Shown here in pieces: positions 37,883 through 42,474 of a DNA stretch of 43,981 nt (positions are counted from its first letter, which is position 1; every line of letters begins with the position of its first letter). The DNA is from a virus. Taxonomy: Duplodnaviria; Heunggongvirae; Uroviricota; Caudoviricetes. A model generated the notes under the pieces. It was not told the origin of the DNA. It saw only the letters and a program-made list of their open reading frames with translations, and searched no databases. The stretch covers positions 1 to 43,981 of IMG/VR virus record IMGVR_UViG_3300045988_012512; one strand, given 5' to 3'. The translations under genes were made by a program, and so were the position numbers.

Positions 37883-40132
37883 ATGAGTTACCTGTTCTTA
37901 GACTTTGAAACATTCTCCGAAGCCGATTTGAAGAAAGTCGGCTCCTATGCTTACGCTGAGCACCCAACTACCGAAGTGCTTATCTGCACATACGCTTTTG
38001 ACAACGAGCCAGTGCAGATATGGGATTGCACCGACGGCAGCGACATGCCTGGCGATTTGCACCGCGCACTACGCCGCCTGGTTAAACCAAACAGTCGCAT
38101 TAAGATGGTGTGGCATAACGGTGGACTTTTCGACAGGCTCATCATGAAAAACTGCTGGGACTTTGATATTCCGGTAAGCAACACCATTGATACTATGATT
38201 TGGGCGTTTCGCCACGCGCTGCCGGGTTCGCTAGATGCGCTGTGCGAAGTGCTTGGCGTGTCCGCCGACAACGCGAAAGACAAACGCGGCAAGGCGCTTA
38301 TTCAGCGTTTCTCTAAACCGACACCGAAGAACTACAAAATCCGCCGATACACCGCCGAAACGCACCCGGATGAGTGGGCGCTGTTCATCAAGTACGCCGT
38401 GAGCGACATCACTGCGATGCGTGAAGTCTTCCATAAGCTGCCGCGTTGGGGTAACTCAGAGTTCGAAGACCGTGTACTGGAACTGGACCAGTTAATCAAT
38501 GACCGCGGGTTTAAGGTCGACGTTGCACTGGCGGAAGCCGCGATTGAAGCCGTGGAGAAGCACAAGGCGCAGTTACAGGAAGAAGCCCAACGTAAATACG
38601 GCGGGTCGCTTACCGGTAAAGACTTTCTGCCTATTCTGCGTGAACTCGCTCCTGCGCACAGAATCCACAACGCGCAGAAGTCGACGCTGAATGACCTGCT
38701 GGCTGATGATGATTTACCGGACGACGCTCGCGCGATTATCGAAATGCGCCTCGGGGCGGCGTCCACTGCGTCAACGAAATATAACCCGCTGCTGCTAGGA
38801 CGCTCGTCGGACGACCGCCGTCGTGGTTGTATCCAGTACGGAGGCGCTAAGCGTACATTACGGTTTGCGGGTAAAGGCTTCCAGCCACAGAACCTCGCAC
38901 GCGGGTACTATCACGACGACCCGAAGAATAAAAAGAAGAAAGTACGTTATGACTGGATGTCAGAGAAGGACTGGTGGAGAGTAACGCACCCATTGTCCTA
39001 CGGAATTGACCTGCTGTTTAAAGGCCGTGCGCATCGCCGTTTTGATGTGGCAAAACTGACAGCATCTACGGTGCGTAGCTGCATCATACCGGAAGCCGGG
39101 CATAAGTTTGTCGTAGCTGATTACTCTAACGTTGAAGGTCGCGGGTTGGCATGGCTGGCAGGAGAAGAAACCGCTCTCGATACCTTCCGTGCGGGATTGG
39201 ATATTTACTGTGTAACCGCGGGTAAGATGTTCGGCATGGACCCTGATTACATTCTCGAAAGCCGTAGTGACCTACGCCAGATAGGTAAAGCATGTGAATT
39301 GGGCCTTGGCTATGCTGGTGGTGTCGGTGCTTTCGTTCAGTTTGCTAAGAACCTCGGCTTAAACCTGGTCGATATGGCTAAAACAATGGACGGGACTTTC
39401 CCCGACCATATATGGGCCGCTACTGCACGCGGATACGAGTGGGCGCGTATTCAGGAAGCCAAGCGACCGCCACGCCCCGGTGAAAAAGATGACCGGCCAT
39501 CATATATTCTCGATAAGAAAGTGTGGCGCACATGTGATGCAATCAAGCGTATGTGGCGCGAGTCTCACCCTGAAACAGTAGCATTCTGGCGTGATATTGA
39601 AGACGCAGCTATGGCGGCTATCCGCAACCCAGGTAAAGAGTTCACTGCAGGTCCGCGGGGAGTTAAGTTTTCGCGTAACGTAGAAACAGATAACAACGGC
39701 AACAAAGTCGCTGGTTGGTGGTTGCGGATGACGTTGCCGTCGGGTCGCGTTATGTCATACCCCGGCGTCGGGTTAAGTGTATCGAAAGAGACAGACGAAG
39801 ACGGAAAGGTGTCTACTAACGTGCGCATCAAGTACCAGGGGGAAAACCAGTTAACCCGTCAGTGGGGCTTCCAGTACACCTACTCCGGTAAACTGGTGGA
39901 AAACTGCACTCAGGCGCTGTGCCGTGATTTGCTGGCTAACGCCCTGCTGAATGTAGAAGCAAACGGATATCCAATTGTGCTTCATGTTCACGATGAGATT
40001 ATCTGCGAGACCCCAGATTTACCAGAATACAATGTCGCAGAGCTTGGGCGGTTGATGTGCGAATTACCGGAATGGGCCGAAGGGTTCCCTCTTGTAGCGG
40101 AAGGTGCGGAGATGATGCGTTATGCCAAGTAA
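37883..40132 (+). CDS. family A DNA polymerase with 3'-5' exonuclease domain
   Basis: 749 aa; N-terminal exonuclease motif FLDFETFS; C-terminal VLHVHDEI polymerase motif. Confidence 0.85.
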   Translation: MSYLFLDFETFSEADLKKVGSYAYAEHPTTEVLICTYAFDNEPVQIWDCTDGSDMPGDLHRALRRLVKPNSRIKMVWHNGGLFDRLIMKNCWDFDIPVSNTIDTMIWAFRHALPGSLDALCEVLGVSADNAKDKRGKALIQRFSKPTPKNYKIRRYTAETHPDEWALFIKYAVSDITAMREVFHKLPRWGNSEFEDRVLELDQLINDRGFKVDVALAEAAIEAVEKHKAQLQEEAQRKYGGSLTGKDFLPILRELAPAHRIHNAQKSTLNDLLADDDLPDDARAIIEMRLGAASTASTKYNPLLLGRSSDDRRRGCIQYGGAKRTLRFAGKGFQPQNLARGYYHDDPKNKKKKVRYDWMSEKDWWRVTHPLSYGIDLLFKGRAHRRFDVAKLTASTVRSCIIPEAGHKFVVADYSNVEGRGLAWLAGEETALDTFRAGLDIYCVTAGKMFGMDPDYILESRSDLRQIGKACELGLGYAGGVGAFVQFAKNLGLNLVDMAKTMDGTFPDHIWAATARGYEWARIQEAKRPPRPGEKDDRPSYILDKKVWRTCDAIKRMWRESHPETVAFWRDIEDAAMAAIRNPGKEFTAGPRGVKFSRNVETDNNGNKVAGWWLRMTLPSGRVMSYPGVGLSVSKETDEDGKVSTNVRIKYQGENQLTRQWGFQYTYSGKLVENCTQALCRDLLANALLNVEANGYPIVLHVHDEIICETPDLPEYNVAELGRLMCELPEWAEGFPLVAEGAEMMRYAK

Positions 40133-40253
40133 ACTTATTATCGCGGTACTGGCGGGATTCGCCGCCGGTGTCTACTGTCACGAGGGCCAATACGGCATGA
40201 TGGTTGCCGTGTTGGGCATGTTCATCGCAATTTATCTGTGGGTGCTGGAATGA
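40122..40253 (+). CDS. micro-ORF encoding a two-helix membrane peptide (43 aa)
   Basis: MPSKLIIAVLAGFAAGVY...VAVLGMFIAIYLWVLE; overlaps the polymerase stop. Confidence 0.3.
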   Translation: MPSKLIIAVLAGFAAGVYCHEGQYGMMVAVLGMFIAIYLWVLE

Positions 40254-40339
40254 AAATTTACTGGTTCTACGAAGAAGACTGTCGAATCTGTCCGCGCTGC
40301 GGGATTGAACATACGAAACGTGAGGGGTGTGTATTATGA
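40250..40339 (+). CDS. micro-ORF encoding a Cys-rich peptide (29 aa)
   Basis: MKIYWFYEEDCRICPRCGIEH...; ATGA-coupled. Confidence 0.25.
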   Translation: MKIYWFYEEDCRICPRCGIEHTKREGCVL

Positions 40340-40413
40340 CAATGCTTACCACTATTATGATAATCGTAGCCGTGTTTTTAGGTGTTGCCGTTTTGAGTAA
40401 GGTAACGGACTGA
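40336..40413 (+). CDS. micro-ORF encoding a single-helix membrane peptide (25 aa)
   Basis: MTMLTTIMIIVAVFLGVAVLSKVTD; coupled on both sides. Confidence 0.25.
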   Translation: MTMLTTIMIIVAVFLGVAVLSKVTD

Positions 40414-40697
40414 TGACCCCGGAAGGCAAAATACAGAAATACGCGAAAGAGCGATTCGAGGCCCTCGGCGGCCTCGTTCGTAAACTTTCCTATGAGGGGC
40501 GCTCCGGCGCTCCCGACCTGCTGGTGATTCTCCCCGGCGGCATCGTCTGGTTCGTCGAGGTTAAGAAAGACGAAAACACGGAACCAGACCCACACCAGTT
40601 ACGAGAGCATGAGCGGATGCGTAAACGTGGCGCGAATGTTTTTGTCGTCGGATCGTTTAAACAGGTTGACGACCTAATAGCGAACTATTATAGTTAG
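40413..40697 (+). CDS. VRR-NUC domain nuclease
   Basis: GAPDLLVILPGG...VWFVEVKK PD-(D/E)xK core. Confidence 0.65.
   Translation: MTPEGKIQKYAKERFEALGGLVRKLSYEGRSGAPDLLVILPGGIVWFVEVKKDENTEPDPHQLREHERMRKRGANVFVVGSFKQVDDLIANYYS
40666..40694 (+). promoter_or_regulatory. sigma70-type promoter (TTGACG-17-TATAGT) inside the 3' end of the VRR-NUC gene
   Basis: Canonical spacing; -10 identical to the promoters at 34480 and 37103. Confidence 0.45.
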
Positions 40698-40727
40698 CCC
40701 TACACCAACAATATAAGGAATTGAGAA

Positions 40728-40919
40728 ATGAAACACGAATATGACCGCAAACCAGCACGTGACATCGTACCTGGTGACATGATTTTCAACGTTAAGACCC
40801 GTCGCCCTGTTGCCGTTGATACGGTGTTCGTCGAGTCGAATGGTAAACTGGTTATTGAAGACGTAACCGGTAACGTTACGGCGTTCGGGCGTAAAGAGTT
40901 AGTTCTGGTGGCAAAATGA
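40728..40919 (+). CDS. hypothetical protein
   Basis: 63-aa ORF; stop overlaps the helicase start. Confidence 0.4.
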   Translation: MKHEYDRKPARDIVPGDMIFNVKTRRPVAVDTVFVESNGKLVIEDVTGNVTAFGRKELVLVAK

Positions 40920-42340
40920 GTAAGTTTCAAAGGCGCGAATACCAGAAGCTCATGACTTCGTTCATGCTGCAACACCCGCGCTGTAATATCTGGTGCGGCA
41001 TGGGAGGAGGTAAAACCTCCTCCACTATGTGGGTGCTAAACCGCCTGTTCCGCAACGGGCAGCTTACCGAAGAGGACCGCGTGTTAATCCTCGCCCCGTT
41101 GCGCGTTGCGTCCGGTACGTGGCCTGCAGAACAAGAGAAATGGAACTTTCCTTGTCTGCGTGTCGTAGATGCGACCGGTTCAGAGAAGCGCCGCATCGCG
41201 GCGCTGGAGTCTGATGCTAACGTGGTGTGCACGAACTACGAAGTTATCGAATGGCTGATTGACTACTACGGCAAAGACGACTGGCCTTTTACGGTTATCG
41301 TTGCCGATGAAAGCACGAAGCTTAAATCATTCCGCAGCCGTTCGGGTGGTAGCAAGCGGGCAAAGGCGCTTAGTAAAGTGGCGTTCGGTAAGGTTAGGCG
41401 TTTCATCAACCTGACTGGTACGCCGTCACCAAACGGCCTTAAAGACTTGTGGGGTCAGAACTGGTTTATCGACGCGGGCGAGCGCCTTGGCTCATCATAC
41501 ACGGCATTCACCGACCGCTGGTTTAACTCGGTACAGAAAGGAAAATCTGCGATGGCTCGTGAATATCACGCACGACCGGGTGCGGATAATGAGATTCACC
41601 AGAAGATGAAAGACATCAGCTTGACCATCGACCCCGCCGAGTGGTTTGGTTGCGAAGCTCCTGTTATCGTACCGGTCGAAATAGACCTGCCGAAGAAAGC
41701 GCGTCAGGCGTACATAGACATGGAGGAGAAGCTATTCGCGGAACTGGAGAGCGGGGAGGTTGAAGCGGCTAACGCCGCGGCGAAGACGTCGAAGTGTTTG
41801 CAGATTGCATCCGGTGCCGTATATGTGTCGGGGTCAGACGGCGAAGCAACCAAAGAATGGGAGAAAGTGCACGACACGAAACTGGATGCGCTGGAGTCAA
41901 TTGTTGAGGAGTTACAGGGTGCACCGTTACTGGTGGCCTATCAGTTTAAGCACGAACTGGAGCGCATCCTTAAGCGATTCCCGCAGGCGCAGGCGTTTGC
42001 CAAAGGTGCGAAGGGTAATAAGCAGATGGAAGCGTGGAACCGAGGTGAAATCGAAATCATGTGCGTGCATCCTGCGTCAGCCGGGCATGGTTTGAATTTA
42101 CAGGACGGCGGGCATCATCTTGCGTTCATCTCACAAGGATGGAACCTTGAGCACTATTTGCAGGTCGTTGAGCGCATAGGCCCGGTACGCCAGAAGCAGG
42201 CAGGCCACGAGCGCCCGGTGTTCCTTTATCACATAGTCGCTAAAGACACGCTGGATGAGGTTGTTGCCGCGCGTACAGACGATAAGAAATCGGTACAGGA
42301 AGAATTGCTCAATTACATGAAGAGACGAGGTACGAAATGA
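40916..42340 (+). CDS. SNF2-family (DEAD-like) helicase/ATPase
   Basis: GMGGGKTS (motif I), LILAPLRV, VADEST (motif II), NLTGTPSPNG (motif III). Confidence 0.7.
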   Translation: MSKFQRREYQKLMTSFMLQHPRCNIWCGMGGGKTSSTMWVLNRLFRNGQLTEEDRVLILAPLRVASGTWPAEQEKWNFPCLRVVDATGSEKRRIAALESDANVVCTNYEVIEWLIDYYGKDDWPFTVIVADESTKLKSFRSRSGGSKRAKALSKVAFGKVRRFINLTGTPSPNGLKDLWGQNWFIDAGERLGSSYTAFTDRWFNSVQKGKSAMAREYHARPGADNEIHQKMKDISLTIDPAEWFGCEAPVIVPVEIDLPKKARQAYIDMEEKLFAELESGEVEAANAAAKTSKCLQIASGAVYVSGSDGEATKEWEKVHDTKLDALESIVEELQGAPLLVAYQFKHELERILKRFPQAQAFAKGAKGNKQMEAWNRGEIEIMCVHPASAGHGLNLQDGGHHLAFISQGWNLEHYLQVVERIGPVRQKQAGHERPVFLYHIVAKDTLDEVVAARTDDKKSVQEELLNYMKRRGTK

Positions 42341-42474
42341 ACATCATAGCCCCGATTCCGGCGTTGCAAAAACGTATCAAGGAACTCGAAGAAGAGGTTC
42401 TACGACTACGGCAGCAAAGGGACGCCGCTAATGCGCAACTGGCGTTTGTACTGGAGAAGTTGTCAGAAGAGTAG
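42337..42474 (+). CDS. small coiled-coil protein (45 aa)
   Basis: ATGA-coupled to the helicase gene. Confidence 0.3.
   Translation: MNIIAPIPALQKRIKELEEEVLRLRQQRDAANAQLAFVLEKLSEE

What the first reader, a model, noticed from the sequence alone, without database searches (positions are those of the whole stretch)
40122..40413. Three coupled micro-ORFs (membrane and Cys-rich peptides) between the DNA polymerase and VRR-NUC genes
A 43-aa two-helix hydrophobic peptide, a 29-aa peptide with a CxxCxxC pattern and a 25-aa single-helix peptide are chained by ATGA and TGATG overlaps; the first overlaps the polymerase stop. None is in the ORF track. Membrane micro-proteins inside a replication operon are unexpected.
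Basis: seen in the sequence. Interest (0 to 1): 0.35.

Follow-up and report, generated by a model that had tools for sequence, protein, structure and literature searches.

The report
Small conserved phage genes after polymerase
The three tiny overlapping reading frames are real: two are conserved small genes already listed as "hypothetical proteins" in this family of E. coli/Salmonella phages, and the third is a rare short version of a swappable gene, so the finding is correct but ordinary, with function still unknown.

Summary
ORF1 is 40122-40253 (43 aa), ORF2 is 40250-40339 (29 aa) and ORF3 is 40336-40413 (25 aa). They tile the gap between the DNA polymerase stop and the VRR-NUC start through an 11-nt overlap, two ATGA overlaps and one TGATG overlap. 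Only 5 of 200,000 shuffles gave such tiling.

The window is a Kagunavirus-like (Guernseyvirinae) phage genome.

- **ORF1 and ORF2** match PHROG families 10404 and 38225. Several relatives annotate them as hypothetical proteins. Both show purifying selection only in the proposed frames (pN/pS 0.24 and 0.17, against 1.1-2.1 in the other frames).
- **ORF2** is found in 444 phage records and nowhere outside the subfamily.
- **ORF1** is found in 222 records. Many Salmonella phages have lost its interior through an in-frame deletion that keeps ORF2 coupled to the polymerase stop.
- **ORF3** occupies a swappable slot. Relatives have nothing there, a 23/25-aa one-helix peptide, a 50-aa two-helix peptide, a 64-aa Cys-rich protein or an HNH endonuclease. 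The 25-aa form is rare, with too few sequences to test.

The first Cys of the "CxxCxxC" pattern is not conserved. AlphaFold2 models ORF1 as a helical hairpin (pLDDT 93).

Best reading: translationally coupled accessory micro-proteins at a plasticity hotspot, with function unknown. Interest is low.

The parts
37883..40132 (+). Family A DNA polymerase gene (749 aa). Its last codons (..Y A K stop) contain the ORF1 start codon.
   Evidence: ORF list. Annotated as DNA polymerase in K1G, Bas70, Shashou and HSE2. 54 of 57 related loci have ATGC[C/T]AAGTAA at this junction.
40108..40111 (+). GGAG Shine-Dalgarno-like motif, 10 nt upstream of the ORF1 ATG and inside the polymerase coding sequence.
   Evidence: Sequence. 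GGAG is the commonest motif at this position in related loci. The function as a ribosome-binding site is inferred.
40122..40253 (+). ORF1: a 43-aa two-helix hydrophobic hairpin micro-protein (PHROG 10404).
   Evidence: phrog_10404 match, E 3.9e-32 over 43/43 positions. pN/pS is 0.24 in frame against 1.07 and 1.94 in the other frames, over 42 distinct sequences with no internal stops. tblastn finds it in 222 phage records. AlphaFold2 gives a helical hairpin, pLDDT 93. Annotated as a hypothetical protein in Bas70, Shashou, L AB-2017 and ORH_001.
40250..40339 (+). ORF2: a 29-aa soluble Cys-rich micro-protein with a CPRCG knuckle (PHROG 38225), near-universal in Guernseyvirinae.
   Evidence: phrog_38225 match, E 2.5e-22. 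pN/pS is 0.17 in frame against 2.1 and 1.4 in the other frames, over 48 distinct sequences. tblastn finds it in 444 phage records, all Guernseyvirinae-type hosts. A phmmer search of 1.84 billion representatives found only 2 genuine clusters. SETP13-like phages carry an in-frame 33-aa fusion variant.
40322..40327 (+). GAGGGG Shine-Dalgarno-like motif for the slot-3 gene, embedded in ORF2 codons R24-E25-G26, 8 nt upstream of the ORF3 ATG.
   Evidence: Sequence. GAGGG followed by ..ATGA recurs at the end of ORF2 in relatives whatever gene follows. The function as a ribosome-binding site is inferred.
40336..40413 (+). ORF3: a 25-aa single-helix hydrophobic peptide, the rare short allele of the variable 'slot 3' gene.
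   Evidence: The same allele occurs in 4 of 50,697 phage records and in IMG/VR locus L060. Among the 5 sequences compared the frame and both overlaps are intact, with changes T6V/F, I9V and S21C. It aligns with the first helix of the 50-aa allele, which has pN/pS 0.205. No PHROG, Pfam or NCBIfam match.
40413..40697 (+). VRR-NUC nuclease gene (94 aa), the last member of the coupled chain.
   Evidence: phrog_93 endonuclease, E 3e-33, and phrog_5702. Annotated as VRR-NUC or Holliday junction resolvase in relatives.

Best explanation
The 292-nt stretch is ordinary, densely packed phage coding sequence. It holds three small genes read in one transcript with the DNA polymerase and the VRR-NUC nuclease. 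They are translated by termination-reinitiation at overlapping stop/start codons (pol stop within ORF1, ATGA, ATGA, TGATG).

- **ORF1** encodes a 43-aa helical hairpin that most likely inserts into the inner membrane.
- **ORF2** encodes a 29-aa soluble peptide. Its conserved C14-P-R-C17-G knuckle, together with H21 and C27, most likely binds a metal ion (zinc). It is near-universal in the subfamily and always stays coupled to the polymerase stop.
- **ORF3** encodes a 25-aa single-pass hydrophobic peptide. It is the short allele of a gene that occupies an exchangeable slot directly upstream of VRR-NUC.

Shown here: the frames, the overlaps, the conservation, frame-specific purifying selection for ORF1, ORF2 and the 50-aa slot-3 allele, and the cassette variability.

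Inferred: translation by coupling, membrane insertion, metal binding, and the role. For ORF1 and ORF3 the likeliest role is accessory host-interaction or membrane micro-proteins, not core replication parts. ORF2 may be a small cofactor made in step with the polymerase.
For: - **Anatomy:**
- **Family matches and prior annotation:**
- **Purifying selection only in the proposed frames:** ORF1 0.24, ORF2 0.17, 50-aa slot-3 allele 0.205, comparable with the polymerase C-terminus at 0.19.
- **Junction conservation across 57 loci:**
- **In-frame deletion in SETP13-like Jerseyviruses:** it joins ORF1 codons 1-7 to ORF2 and keeps both overlaps. This is expected only if ORF2 is translated.
- **Distribution:** ORF2 in 444 records, ORF1 in 222, the 50-aa allele in 121, the 25-aa allele in 4.
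- **Slot 3 and the wider junction hold unrelated cassettes, including HNH endonucleases:**
- **ORF1 structure:** helical hairpin, pLDDT 93. ORF1 and ORF3 have GRAVY 1.34 and 1.86.
- **ORF2 knuckle:** it resembles the CPRCG zinc knuckle of COX5B, but only weakly (E 0.4).
- **Chance tiling:** 5 in 200,000 shuffles.
Against: - There is no expression, localisation or metal-binding data for any of the three peptides.
- ORF3-25 has too few sequences for a selection test. Its few differences are mostly non-synonymous and no family matches it, so it could be a decaying remnant.
- ORF2's first Cys is variable, H21 is occasionally Q or Y, and one sequence has C17Y.
- The AlphaFold2 model of ORF2 has low confidence (pLDDT 59).
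- No significant match to any zinc-finger family.
- ORF2 is deleted in one assembled variant, P0084, and ORF1's ATG is ACG in two loci. Neither gene is therefore strictly indispensable.
- The ORF1 helices are short for membrane spans (15-17 hydrophobic residues).
Confidence: 0.7

Rival explanations
1. The small ORFs matter only as a ribosome relay. They pass ribosomes from the polymerase stop to the VRR-NUC start, and the peptides themselves have no function.
For: Every junction is an overlap, and the overlaps are kept in all architectures. ORF3-25 shows no measurable amino-acid constraint.
Against: Amino-acid sequences of ORF1, ORF2 and the 50-aa allele are under purifying selection. Relatives couple ORF2 directly to VRR-NUC without any slot-3 gene. 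More distant phages put VRR-NUC 2-12 nt after the polymerase, so no relay is needed.
Confidence: 0.1
2. ORF2 is a core replication or repair cofactor: a zinc-knuckle micro-protein made in step with the polymerase that binds the polymerase, the VRR-NUC nuclease or DNA.
For: It is present in 444 of the roughly 445 matching Guernseyvirinae records. It is always directly coupled to the polymerase stop or to ORF1, even after ORF1 is deleted. It has the strongest constraint of the three (pN/pS 0.17). It carries a conserved CPRCG knuckle plus C27.
Against: No homolog exists outside the subfamily, including in more distant phages that share the pol/VRR-NUC synteny. One assembled variant lacks it (P0084). 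The structure model has low confidence. No interaction data exist.
Confidence: 0.2
3. ORF3-25 is not a functional gene. It is a truncated remnant of the 50-aa two-helix gene that stays open only because it is short and young.
For: It is rare (4 of 50,697 records). It aligns only with the first helix of the 50-aa allele. Three of its variable codons change the amino acid and only two differences are synonymous. It is not annotated in the annotated carrier records inspected, HSE2 and ORH_001. Decayed cassettes occur at this slot, such as the HNH remnant in L054.
Against: The start, stop, frame and both overlaps are intact in all 5 sequences compared. All substitutions keep hydrophobic character. 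An independent, diverged 23-aa one-helix allele exists in L024 with the same layout.
Confidence: 0.25
4. The region is non-coding regulatory sequence (promoter, RNA structure or homing-endonuclease target) and the ORFs are chance.
For: A sigma70-like match lies at 40336-40364. HNH endonucleases insert at these junctions.
Against: Promoter-like counts do not exceed shuffles. Synonymous sites vary freely (pS 0.22-0.40) while non-synonymous sites do not. Indels are in frame. Chance tiling is 5 in 200,000.
Confidence: 0.03
5. The real gene is the 198-aa antisense ORF at 39999-40595 on the minus strand.
For: It is the longest ORF over the interval in the window.
Against: It is open across the stretch in only 4 of 57 related loci. 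It overlaps the conserved polymerase and VRR-NUC coding sequence on the opposite strand.
Confidence: 0.01
6. ORF1 and ORF3 are holin- or antiholin-like lysis-timing proteins.
For: They are small hydrophobic one- or two-helix peptides.
Against: A well-annotated relative has a separate lysis cassette (two holins, an endolysin and spanins) far from the replication module. At 25-43 aa the peptides are shorter than known holins (own knowledge). No holin family matches.
Confidence: 0.05

Closest known systems
PHROG families phrog_10404 and phrog_38225 (hypothetical proteins of Guernseyvirinae, e.g. Bas70_0041/0040 and CPT_Shashou_042/041)
   Same: Full-length, high-scoring matches (E 3.9e-32 and 2.5e-22). 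Same position, same lengths (43 and 29 aa) and same overlaps.
   Different: Nothing substantive. The window carries slightly different alleles (93-100% identity). The families have no assigned function.
50-aa two-helix slot-3 peptide of K1G, Bas70 and SETP13 (e.g. Bas70_0039)
   Same: Same slot, same ATGA coupling to ORF2 and to VRR-NUC, and a similar N-terminal helix: MTM(L/F)...A(L/V)(F/L)LG.
   Different: ORF3 here is half the length, has one helix instead of two and a different C-terminus (SKVTD). hhalign aligns only 8 columns.
Small accessory genes downstream of the T7 DNA polymerase gene (genes 5.3-5.9) - own knowledge, not tested here
   Same: A run of short, tightly packed genes directly after a family A polymerase gene in a lytic phage. 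In T7 several of them act on host factors, not on replication itself.
   Different: No sequence relationship was tested or expected. The T7 proteins are soluble and larger.
Zinc-ribbon or rubredoxin-type CPxCG knuckle (e.g. the C-terminal knuckle of cytochrome c oxidase subunit 5B)
   Same: Local motif: ORF2 YWFYEEDCRICPRCGIEH against COX5B FWLHKGEAQRCPRCGAHY. A short beta-hairpin around the knuckle appears in the low-confidence model.
   Different: E 0.4, which is not significant. There is only one CxxC knuckle instead of two. The other ligands would be C27 plus H21 or the variable C11.
Small phage membrane proteins used for superinfection exclusion or host takeover (e.g. T4 Imm/Sp, HK97 gp15) - own knowledge
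   Same: Very small hydrophobic early or middle gene products that are dispensable and variable between close relatives.
   Different: No homology, and no functional data for ORF1 or ORF3.

Membership tests
phrog_10404 (ORF1) | Significant full-length match to the family profile | tested here: met
   E 3.9e-32, residues 1-43 on profile positions 1-43 of 43
phrog_38225 (ORF2) | Significant match to the family profile | tested here: met
   E 2.5e-22, residues 1-28 on profile positions 5-32 of 36
Any PHROG/Pfam/NCBIfam/PADLOC family (ORF3-25) | Significant profile match | tested here: not met
   Best E-values are 0.075 (PHROG), 0.21 (Pfam) and 0.18 (NCBIfam), with none in PADLOC
Protein-coding gene under selection (ORF1, ORF2) | An excess of synonymous over non-synonymous change in the proposed frame only, with no internal stops in relatives | tested here: met
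   pN/pS 0.24 and 0.17 against 1.07-2.12 in the other frames. No internal stops in 42 and 48 distinct sequences
Protein-coding gene under selection (ORF3-25) | The same test | tested here: inconclusive
   Only 5 sequences and 6 variable sites. In the pooled estimate made on 3 of these sequences, pN/pS was 1.4 in frame
Translationally coupled overlapping genes | Stop/start overlaps (ATGA, TGATG) conserved across relatives | tested here: met
   Junction counts in 57 loci. Actual reinitiation is not testable with these tools
Classical zinc ribbon | Two CxxC knuckles giving four conserved Cys ligands | tested here: not met
   Only C14-x2-C17 is a conserved knuckle. C11 varies (R, Y, F) and C27 is a single residue. 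No significant Pfam or PDB match
Retroviral-type CCHC zinc knuckle | Spacing C-x2-C-x4-H-x4-C | tested here: not met
   The spacing here is C14-x2-C17-x3-H21-x5-C27. H21 is Q or Y in two variants
Ferredoxin-type [4Fe-4S] CxxCxxC...CP motif | Invariant CxxCxxC triad plus a distal Cys-Pro | tested here: not met
   The first Cys of the triad is not conserved and there is no distal CP
Metal-binding micro-protein (general) | Binds Zn or another metal | not testable with these tools
   Needs peptide chemistry. The AlphaFold2 model has low confidence (pLDDT 59)
Integral membrane hairpin (ORF1) | Two hydrophobic helices joined by a short polar loop | tested here: met
   AlphaFold2 helices 2-20 and 23-42, pLDDT 93. 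Hydropathy profile. Actual membrane insertion was not tested
Holin | Encoded in the lysis cassette next to the endolysin, with a holin family match | tested here: not met
   In relative Bas70 the lysis cassette lies elsewhere. No holin family hit

The most novel reading that the evidence does not exclude
ORF2 is a 29-aa metal-binding micro-protein that acts as a lineage-specific core cofactor of the Guernseyvirinae replication/repair module. It would be produced in fixed proportion to the DNA polymerase by termination-reinitiation and would act on the polymerase, the VRR-NUC nuclease or DNA. ORF1 and ORF3 would tether or modulate it at the membrane. The natural assemblies that fuse ORF1 helix 1 to ORF2 would then be informative and not mere errors.
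Probability: 0.12. Interest if true: 0.5.

Novelty: new member of a known kind. Interest (0 to 1): 0.2.

Why it matters
The practical value is for annotation. ORF2 is a near-universal 29-aa gene of a large, therapeutically used phage subfamily, yet many GenBank records leave it unannotated ('none' under the match). The 25-aa ORF3 allele was not annotated in either annotated carrier record I inspected.

The locus is also a clear example of a cassette hotspot at a gene junction. Genes are swapped exactly at overlapping start/stop codons, and HNH endonucleases come and go.

Biologically it would matter only if ORF2 proved to be a polymerase- or nuclease-associated micro-protein, or if the membrane peptides had a host-directed role. 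Nothing here shows either.

Tried and rejected
- **Paralogy of ORF1 and the 50-aa slot-3 peptide.** They look alike by eye (VAVLG...WVL), but hhalign gives probability 0.6% over 8 columns. Not supported.
- **Wider homologs of ORF2.**
  - The search for homologous proteins refuses queries under 40 aa.
  - phmmer with the 33-aa GTG-extended form against 1.84 billion representatives found only its own family plus one low-complexity false hit, P0086.
  - tblastn on phages found nothing outside Guernseyvirinae. The Streptococcus and Klebsiella hits at E 2-3 are chance.
- **Family searches.** Pfam, NCBIfam, PADLOC and PDB sequence searches gave nothing significant. The EMC6 hit for ORF1 (E 9e-4, below the curated cut-off) reflects generic hairpin hydrophobicity.
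- **AlphaFold2 model of ORF2.** pLDDT 59, too low for a fold search, so none was run.
- **Antisense 198-aa ORF.** Not conserved.
- **Promoter and terminator scan.** No excess over shuffles and no terminator within the block.
- **Analogous small membrane or Cys-rich ORFs at the same junction in distant pol/VRR-NUC phages.** The content is heterogeneous and unrelated, so there is no consistent analogue.
- **Literature.** No paper in the library discusses these ORFs.
- **VRR-NUC pN/pS.** My slice was not aligned for indels, so that number is not used.
Full report
**1. What is in the sequence**

The window reads as a complete Kagunavirus-like genome of about 44 kb (Guernseyvirinae, siphophages of E. 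coli and Salmonella). A 1.4-kb query around the finding matches 429 phage records at 80-94% identity, almost all Escherichia or Salmonella phages of Kagunavirus/Jerseyvirus type.

| Feature | Coordinates | Length | Junction |
|---|---|---|---|
| DNA polymerase | 37883-40132 | 749 aa | stop TAA at 40130-40132 |
| ORF1 | 40122-40253 | 43 aa | starts 8 nt before the polymerase stop (11-nt overlap) |
| ORF2 | 40250-40339 | 29 aa | ATGA overlap with ORF1 |
| ORF3 | 40336-40413 | 25 aa | ATGA overlap with ORF2, TGATG overlap with VRR-NUC |
| VRR-NUC | 40413-40697 | 94 aa | last gene of the chain |

A fully tiled chain of this kind arose in 5 of 200,000 shuffles of the interval.

**2. ORF1 and ORF2 are genuine, already catalogued genes**

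- ORF1 matches phrog_10404 (E 3.9e-32, full length). ORF2 matches phrog_38225 (E 2.5e-22). Both families have unknown function.
- Bas70, Shashou, L AB-2017 and ORH_001 annotate them as hypothetical proteins with the same coordinates and overlaps. K1G and HSE2 leave them out.
- I collected 79 IMG/VR loci through the VRR-NUC protein plus GenBank loci. Of these, 57 are Guernseyvirinae-type loci, counting the window itself.
- Pooled Nei-Gojobori estimates:

| Gene | Distinct sequences | pS | pN | pN/pS in frame | pN/pS in the other two frames |
|---|---|---|---|---|---|
| ORF1 | 42 | 0.217 | 0.052 | 0.24 | 1.07, 1.94 |
| ORF2 | 48 | 0.398 | 0.068 | 0.17 | 2.12, 1.39 |

- No sequence has an internal stop. 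The last 96 codons of the polymerase give pN/pS 0.19 by the same method.
- Synonymous sites vary freely, so the conservation is at the protein level and not due to a nucleotide element.

**3. A natural experiment confirms translation of ORF2**

In SETP13- and Kenya-K6-like Jerseyviruses the interior of ORF1 is deleted in frame. The first seven ORF1 codons, still overlapping the polymerase stop, run straight into ORF2 and give the 33-aa peptide MLSKLIIYYFREEDCRICPRCGIEHTKREGCIL. Its stop still overlaps the next start.

Distribution by tblastn in the 50,697-record phage collection:

| Gene | Records |
|---|---|
| ORF2 | 444 (essentially every record that matches the locus) |
| ORF1 | 222 |
| 50-aa slot-3 peptide | 121 |
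| 25-aa ORF3 allele | 4 |

ORF2 has no relatives outside the subfamily. A phmmer search of 1.84 billion representative proteins found only two genuine clusters. ORF1 homologs are all 77-98% identical 43-mers on contigs of about 43 kb.

**4. ORF3 sits in an exchangeable slot**

Between the ORF2 stop and the VRR-NUC start, relatives carry one of the following:

- nothing, in which case ORF2 runs 14 nt into VRR-NUC and ends ...GCVDEYA
- a 23- or 25-aa one-helix peptide
- a 50-aa two-helix peptide
- a 64-aa Cys-rich soluble protein, alone or followed by the 50-aa peptide
- an HNH endonuclease of about 165 aa, or a decayed HNH remnant

HNH genes also occur between the polymerase and ORF1 (L009, L036). 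All variants begin at the same ..ATTATGA junction, 8 nt after a conserved GAGGG that is also the R-E-G codons of ORF2.

The 50-aa allele is under purifying selection (pN/pS 0.205, against 0.85 and 1.6 in the other frames).

The 25-aa allele was found in the window, HSE2, BUCT823, ORH_001, Hrm2 and one IMG/VR contig. Five of these sequences were compared. Frame and overlaps are intact in all five. Three codons change the amino acid (T6V/F, I9V, S21C) and two differences are synonymous, which is too few for a test. It aligns with the first helix of the 50-aa allele at both protein and DNA level.

I therefore treat ORF3 as a probable gene, with a real chance (about 0.25) that it is a remnant.

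**5. Wider context**

In more distant phages that keep the pol/VRR-NUC order, the interval ranges from 2 nt to 1,322 nt and holds unrelated genes. The junction is a general plasticity hotspot. Neither membrane peptides nor Cys-rich peptides are a constant feature of the module.

A fully annotated relative (Bas70) has its lysis cassette elsewhere and lists many other genes of 30-50 aa. Micro-genes are normal for this group.

**6. What the peptides look like**

- **ORF1.** AlphaFold2 with 35 homologs gives a helical hairpin (helices 2-20 and 23-42, pLDDT 93). The polar loop is C19-H-E-G-Q-Y-G25. Within that loop and its flanks, Y18, G22 and Y24 are invariant and C19, H20, E21 and Q23 nearly so.
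- **ORF2.** It is hydrophilic (GRAVY -0.43). C14 and C27 are invariant in the sample. C17 is replaced in one sequence and H21 in two. C11 is replaced by R, Y or F in several. The 'CxxCxxC' unit is therefore not the conserved feature. The conserved core is C14-P-R-C17-G...H21...C27.
- **ORF2 motif comparisons.** The spacing does not fit the retroviral CCHC knuckle, a two-knuckle zinc ribbon or a ferredoxin motif. The best PDB sequence match is the CPRCG knuckle of COX5B at a non-significant E of 0.4. The ORF2 model has low confidence (pLDDT 59). Metal binding is a reasonable inference but is not shown.
- **ORF3.** It is a single hydrophobic helix with a short polar tail (GRAVY 1.86).

**7. Mechanism**

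Shown:
- conserved overlaps
- Shine-Dalgarno-like GGAG at 40108-40111, before ORF1
- Shine-Dalgarno-like GAGGGG at 40322-40327, before ORF3
- no terminator inside the block, and no promoter signal above chance

Inferred: the five genes are translated as a coupled chain, so the micro-proteins are made in step with the polymerase and nuclease.

Variability suggests that ORF1 and the slot-3 peptides are accessory, with host-membrane or host-defence interaction the likeliest role. ORF2, being near-universal, may be a small cofactor of the module. None of these functions was testable here.

**8. Rivals rejected or down-weighted**

- A relay-only role is contradicted by amino-acid constraint and by architectures that need no relay.
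- Non-coding regulatory sequence is contradicted by the substitution pattern and the in-frame indels.
- The antisense 198-aa ORF is open in only 4 of 57 loci.
- A holin role is contradicted by location and size.
- ORF1/slot-3 paralogy is not supported.

**9. Verdict**

The interpretation as coupled micro-genes is supported for two of the three ORFs and plausible for the third. The features belong to known hypothetical-protein families of a well-sampled phage subfamily. Their presence in a replication module is not surprising, given the cassette behaviour of this junction.

Interest is low (0.2). The most useful outcome is better annotation of ORF2 and of the slot-3 alleles.

Noticed in passing
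window 39999-40595 (- strand): A 198-aa antisense ORF spans the end of the polymerase gene, all three micro-ORFs and most of VRR-NUC. It is open across the stretch in only 4 of 57 related loci, so it is almost certainly spurious.
   Followed up: yes
window 40697-40930; L001 2889-3713; L003 2889-3674: K1G, Bas70 and many other relatives carry a DNA (cytosine) methyltransferase between the 63-aa ORF (window 40728-40919) and the SNF2-type helicase (window 40916-42340). The window lacks it, and the 63-aa ORF overlaps the helicase start directly.
   Followed up: partly
L004 1566-2063; L006 1737-2228; L009, L036, L054, L061: HNH homing-type endonucleases occupy slot 3 or the pol/ORF1 junction in some relatives. 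L054 keeps only a 43-aa decayed N-terminal remnant. Shashou also has an intein in its helicase. The module is a target for selfish elements.
   Followed up: partly
L014, L015, L025, L028, L032, L039, L052, L053 (slot 3): A 64-aa (63 aa in L025) soluble Cys-rich cassette protein (MSNKPFSKKLAALVDMPEWEF...CAGCTHKGVYY...) appears in slot 3, alone or followed by the 50-aa membrane peptide. It has a weak A2L zinc-ribbon hit (E 0.0047, below the cut-off).
   Followed up: no
window 40133-40339 (frame of pol and ORF2); proteins P0076, P0079, P0080, P0081, P0083, P0084, P0082: The ORF2 frame is the polymerase frame and has no stop from the polymerase TAA to the ORF2 stop. Single-base frameshifts inside ORF1 therefore give the 72-73-aa 'helix 1 + ORF2' fusions seen in several public assemblies. 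These may be real variants or assembly errors. P0084 fuses the ORF1 N-terminus to the 50-aa peptide's C-terminus and deletes ORF2. P0082 is an in-frame 29-aa ORF1 deletion.
   Followed up: partly
window 40336-40364 (+): A sigma70-like match (ATGACA, 17-nt spacer, GATAAT; 10 of 12) lies inside ORF3, upstream of VRR-NUC. The number of such matches in the region does not exceed the shuffles.
   Followed up: no
window 42337-42474 (+): Another micro-gene (45 aa) overlaps the helicase stop by ATGA. Relatives annotate it as a hypothetical protein, and one record mislabels it 'exonuclease subunit SbcD, provisional'.
   Followed up: no
L047 and one other locus (pol/ORF1 junction): The ORF1 start codon is ACG instead of ATG in 2 of 57 loci, which suggests occasional loss or non-canonical initiation of ORF1.
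   Followed up: no
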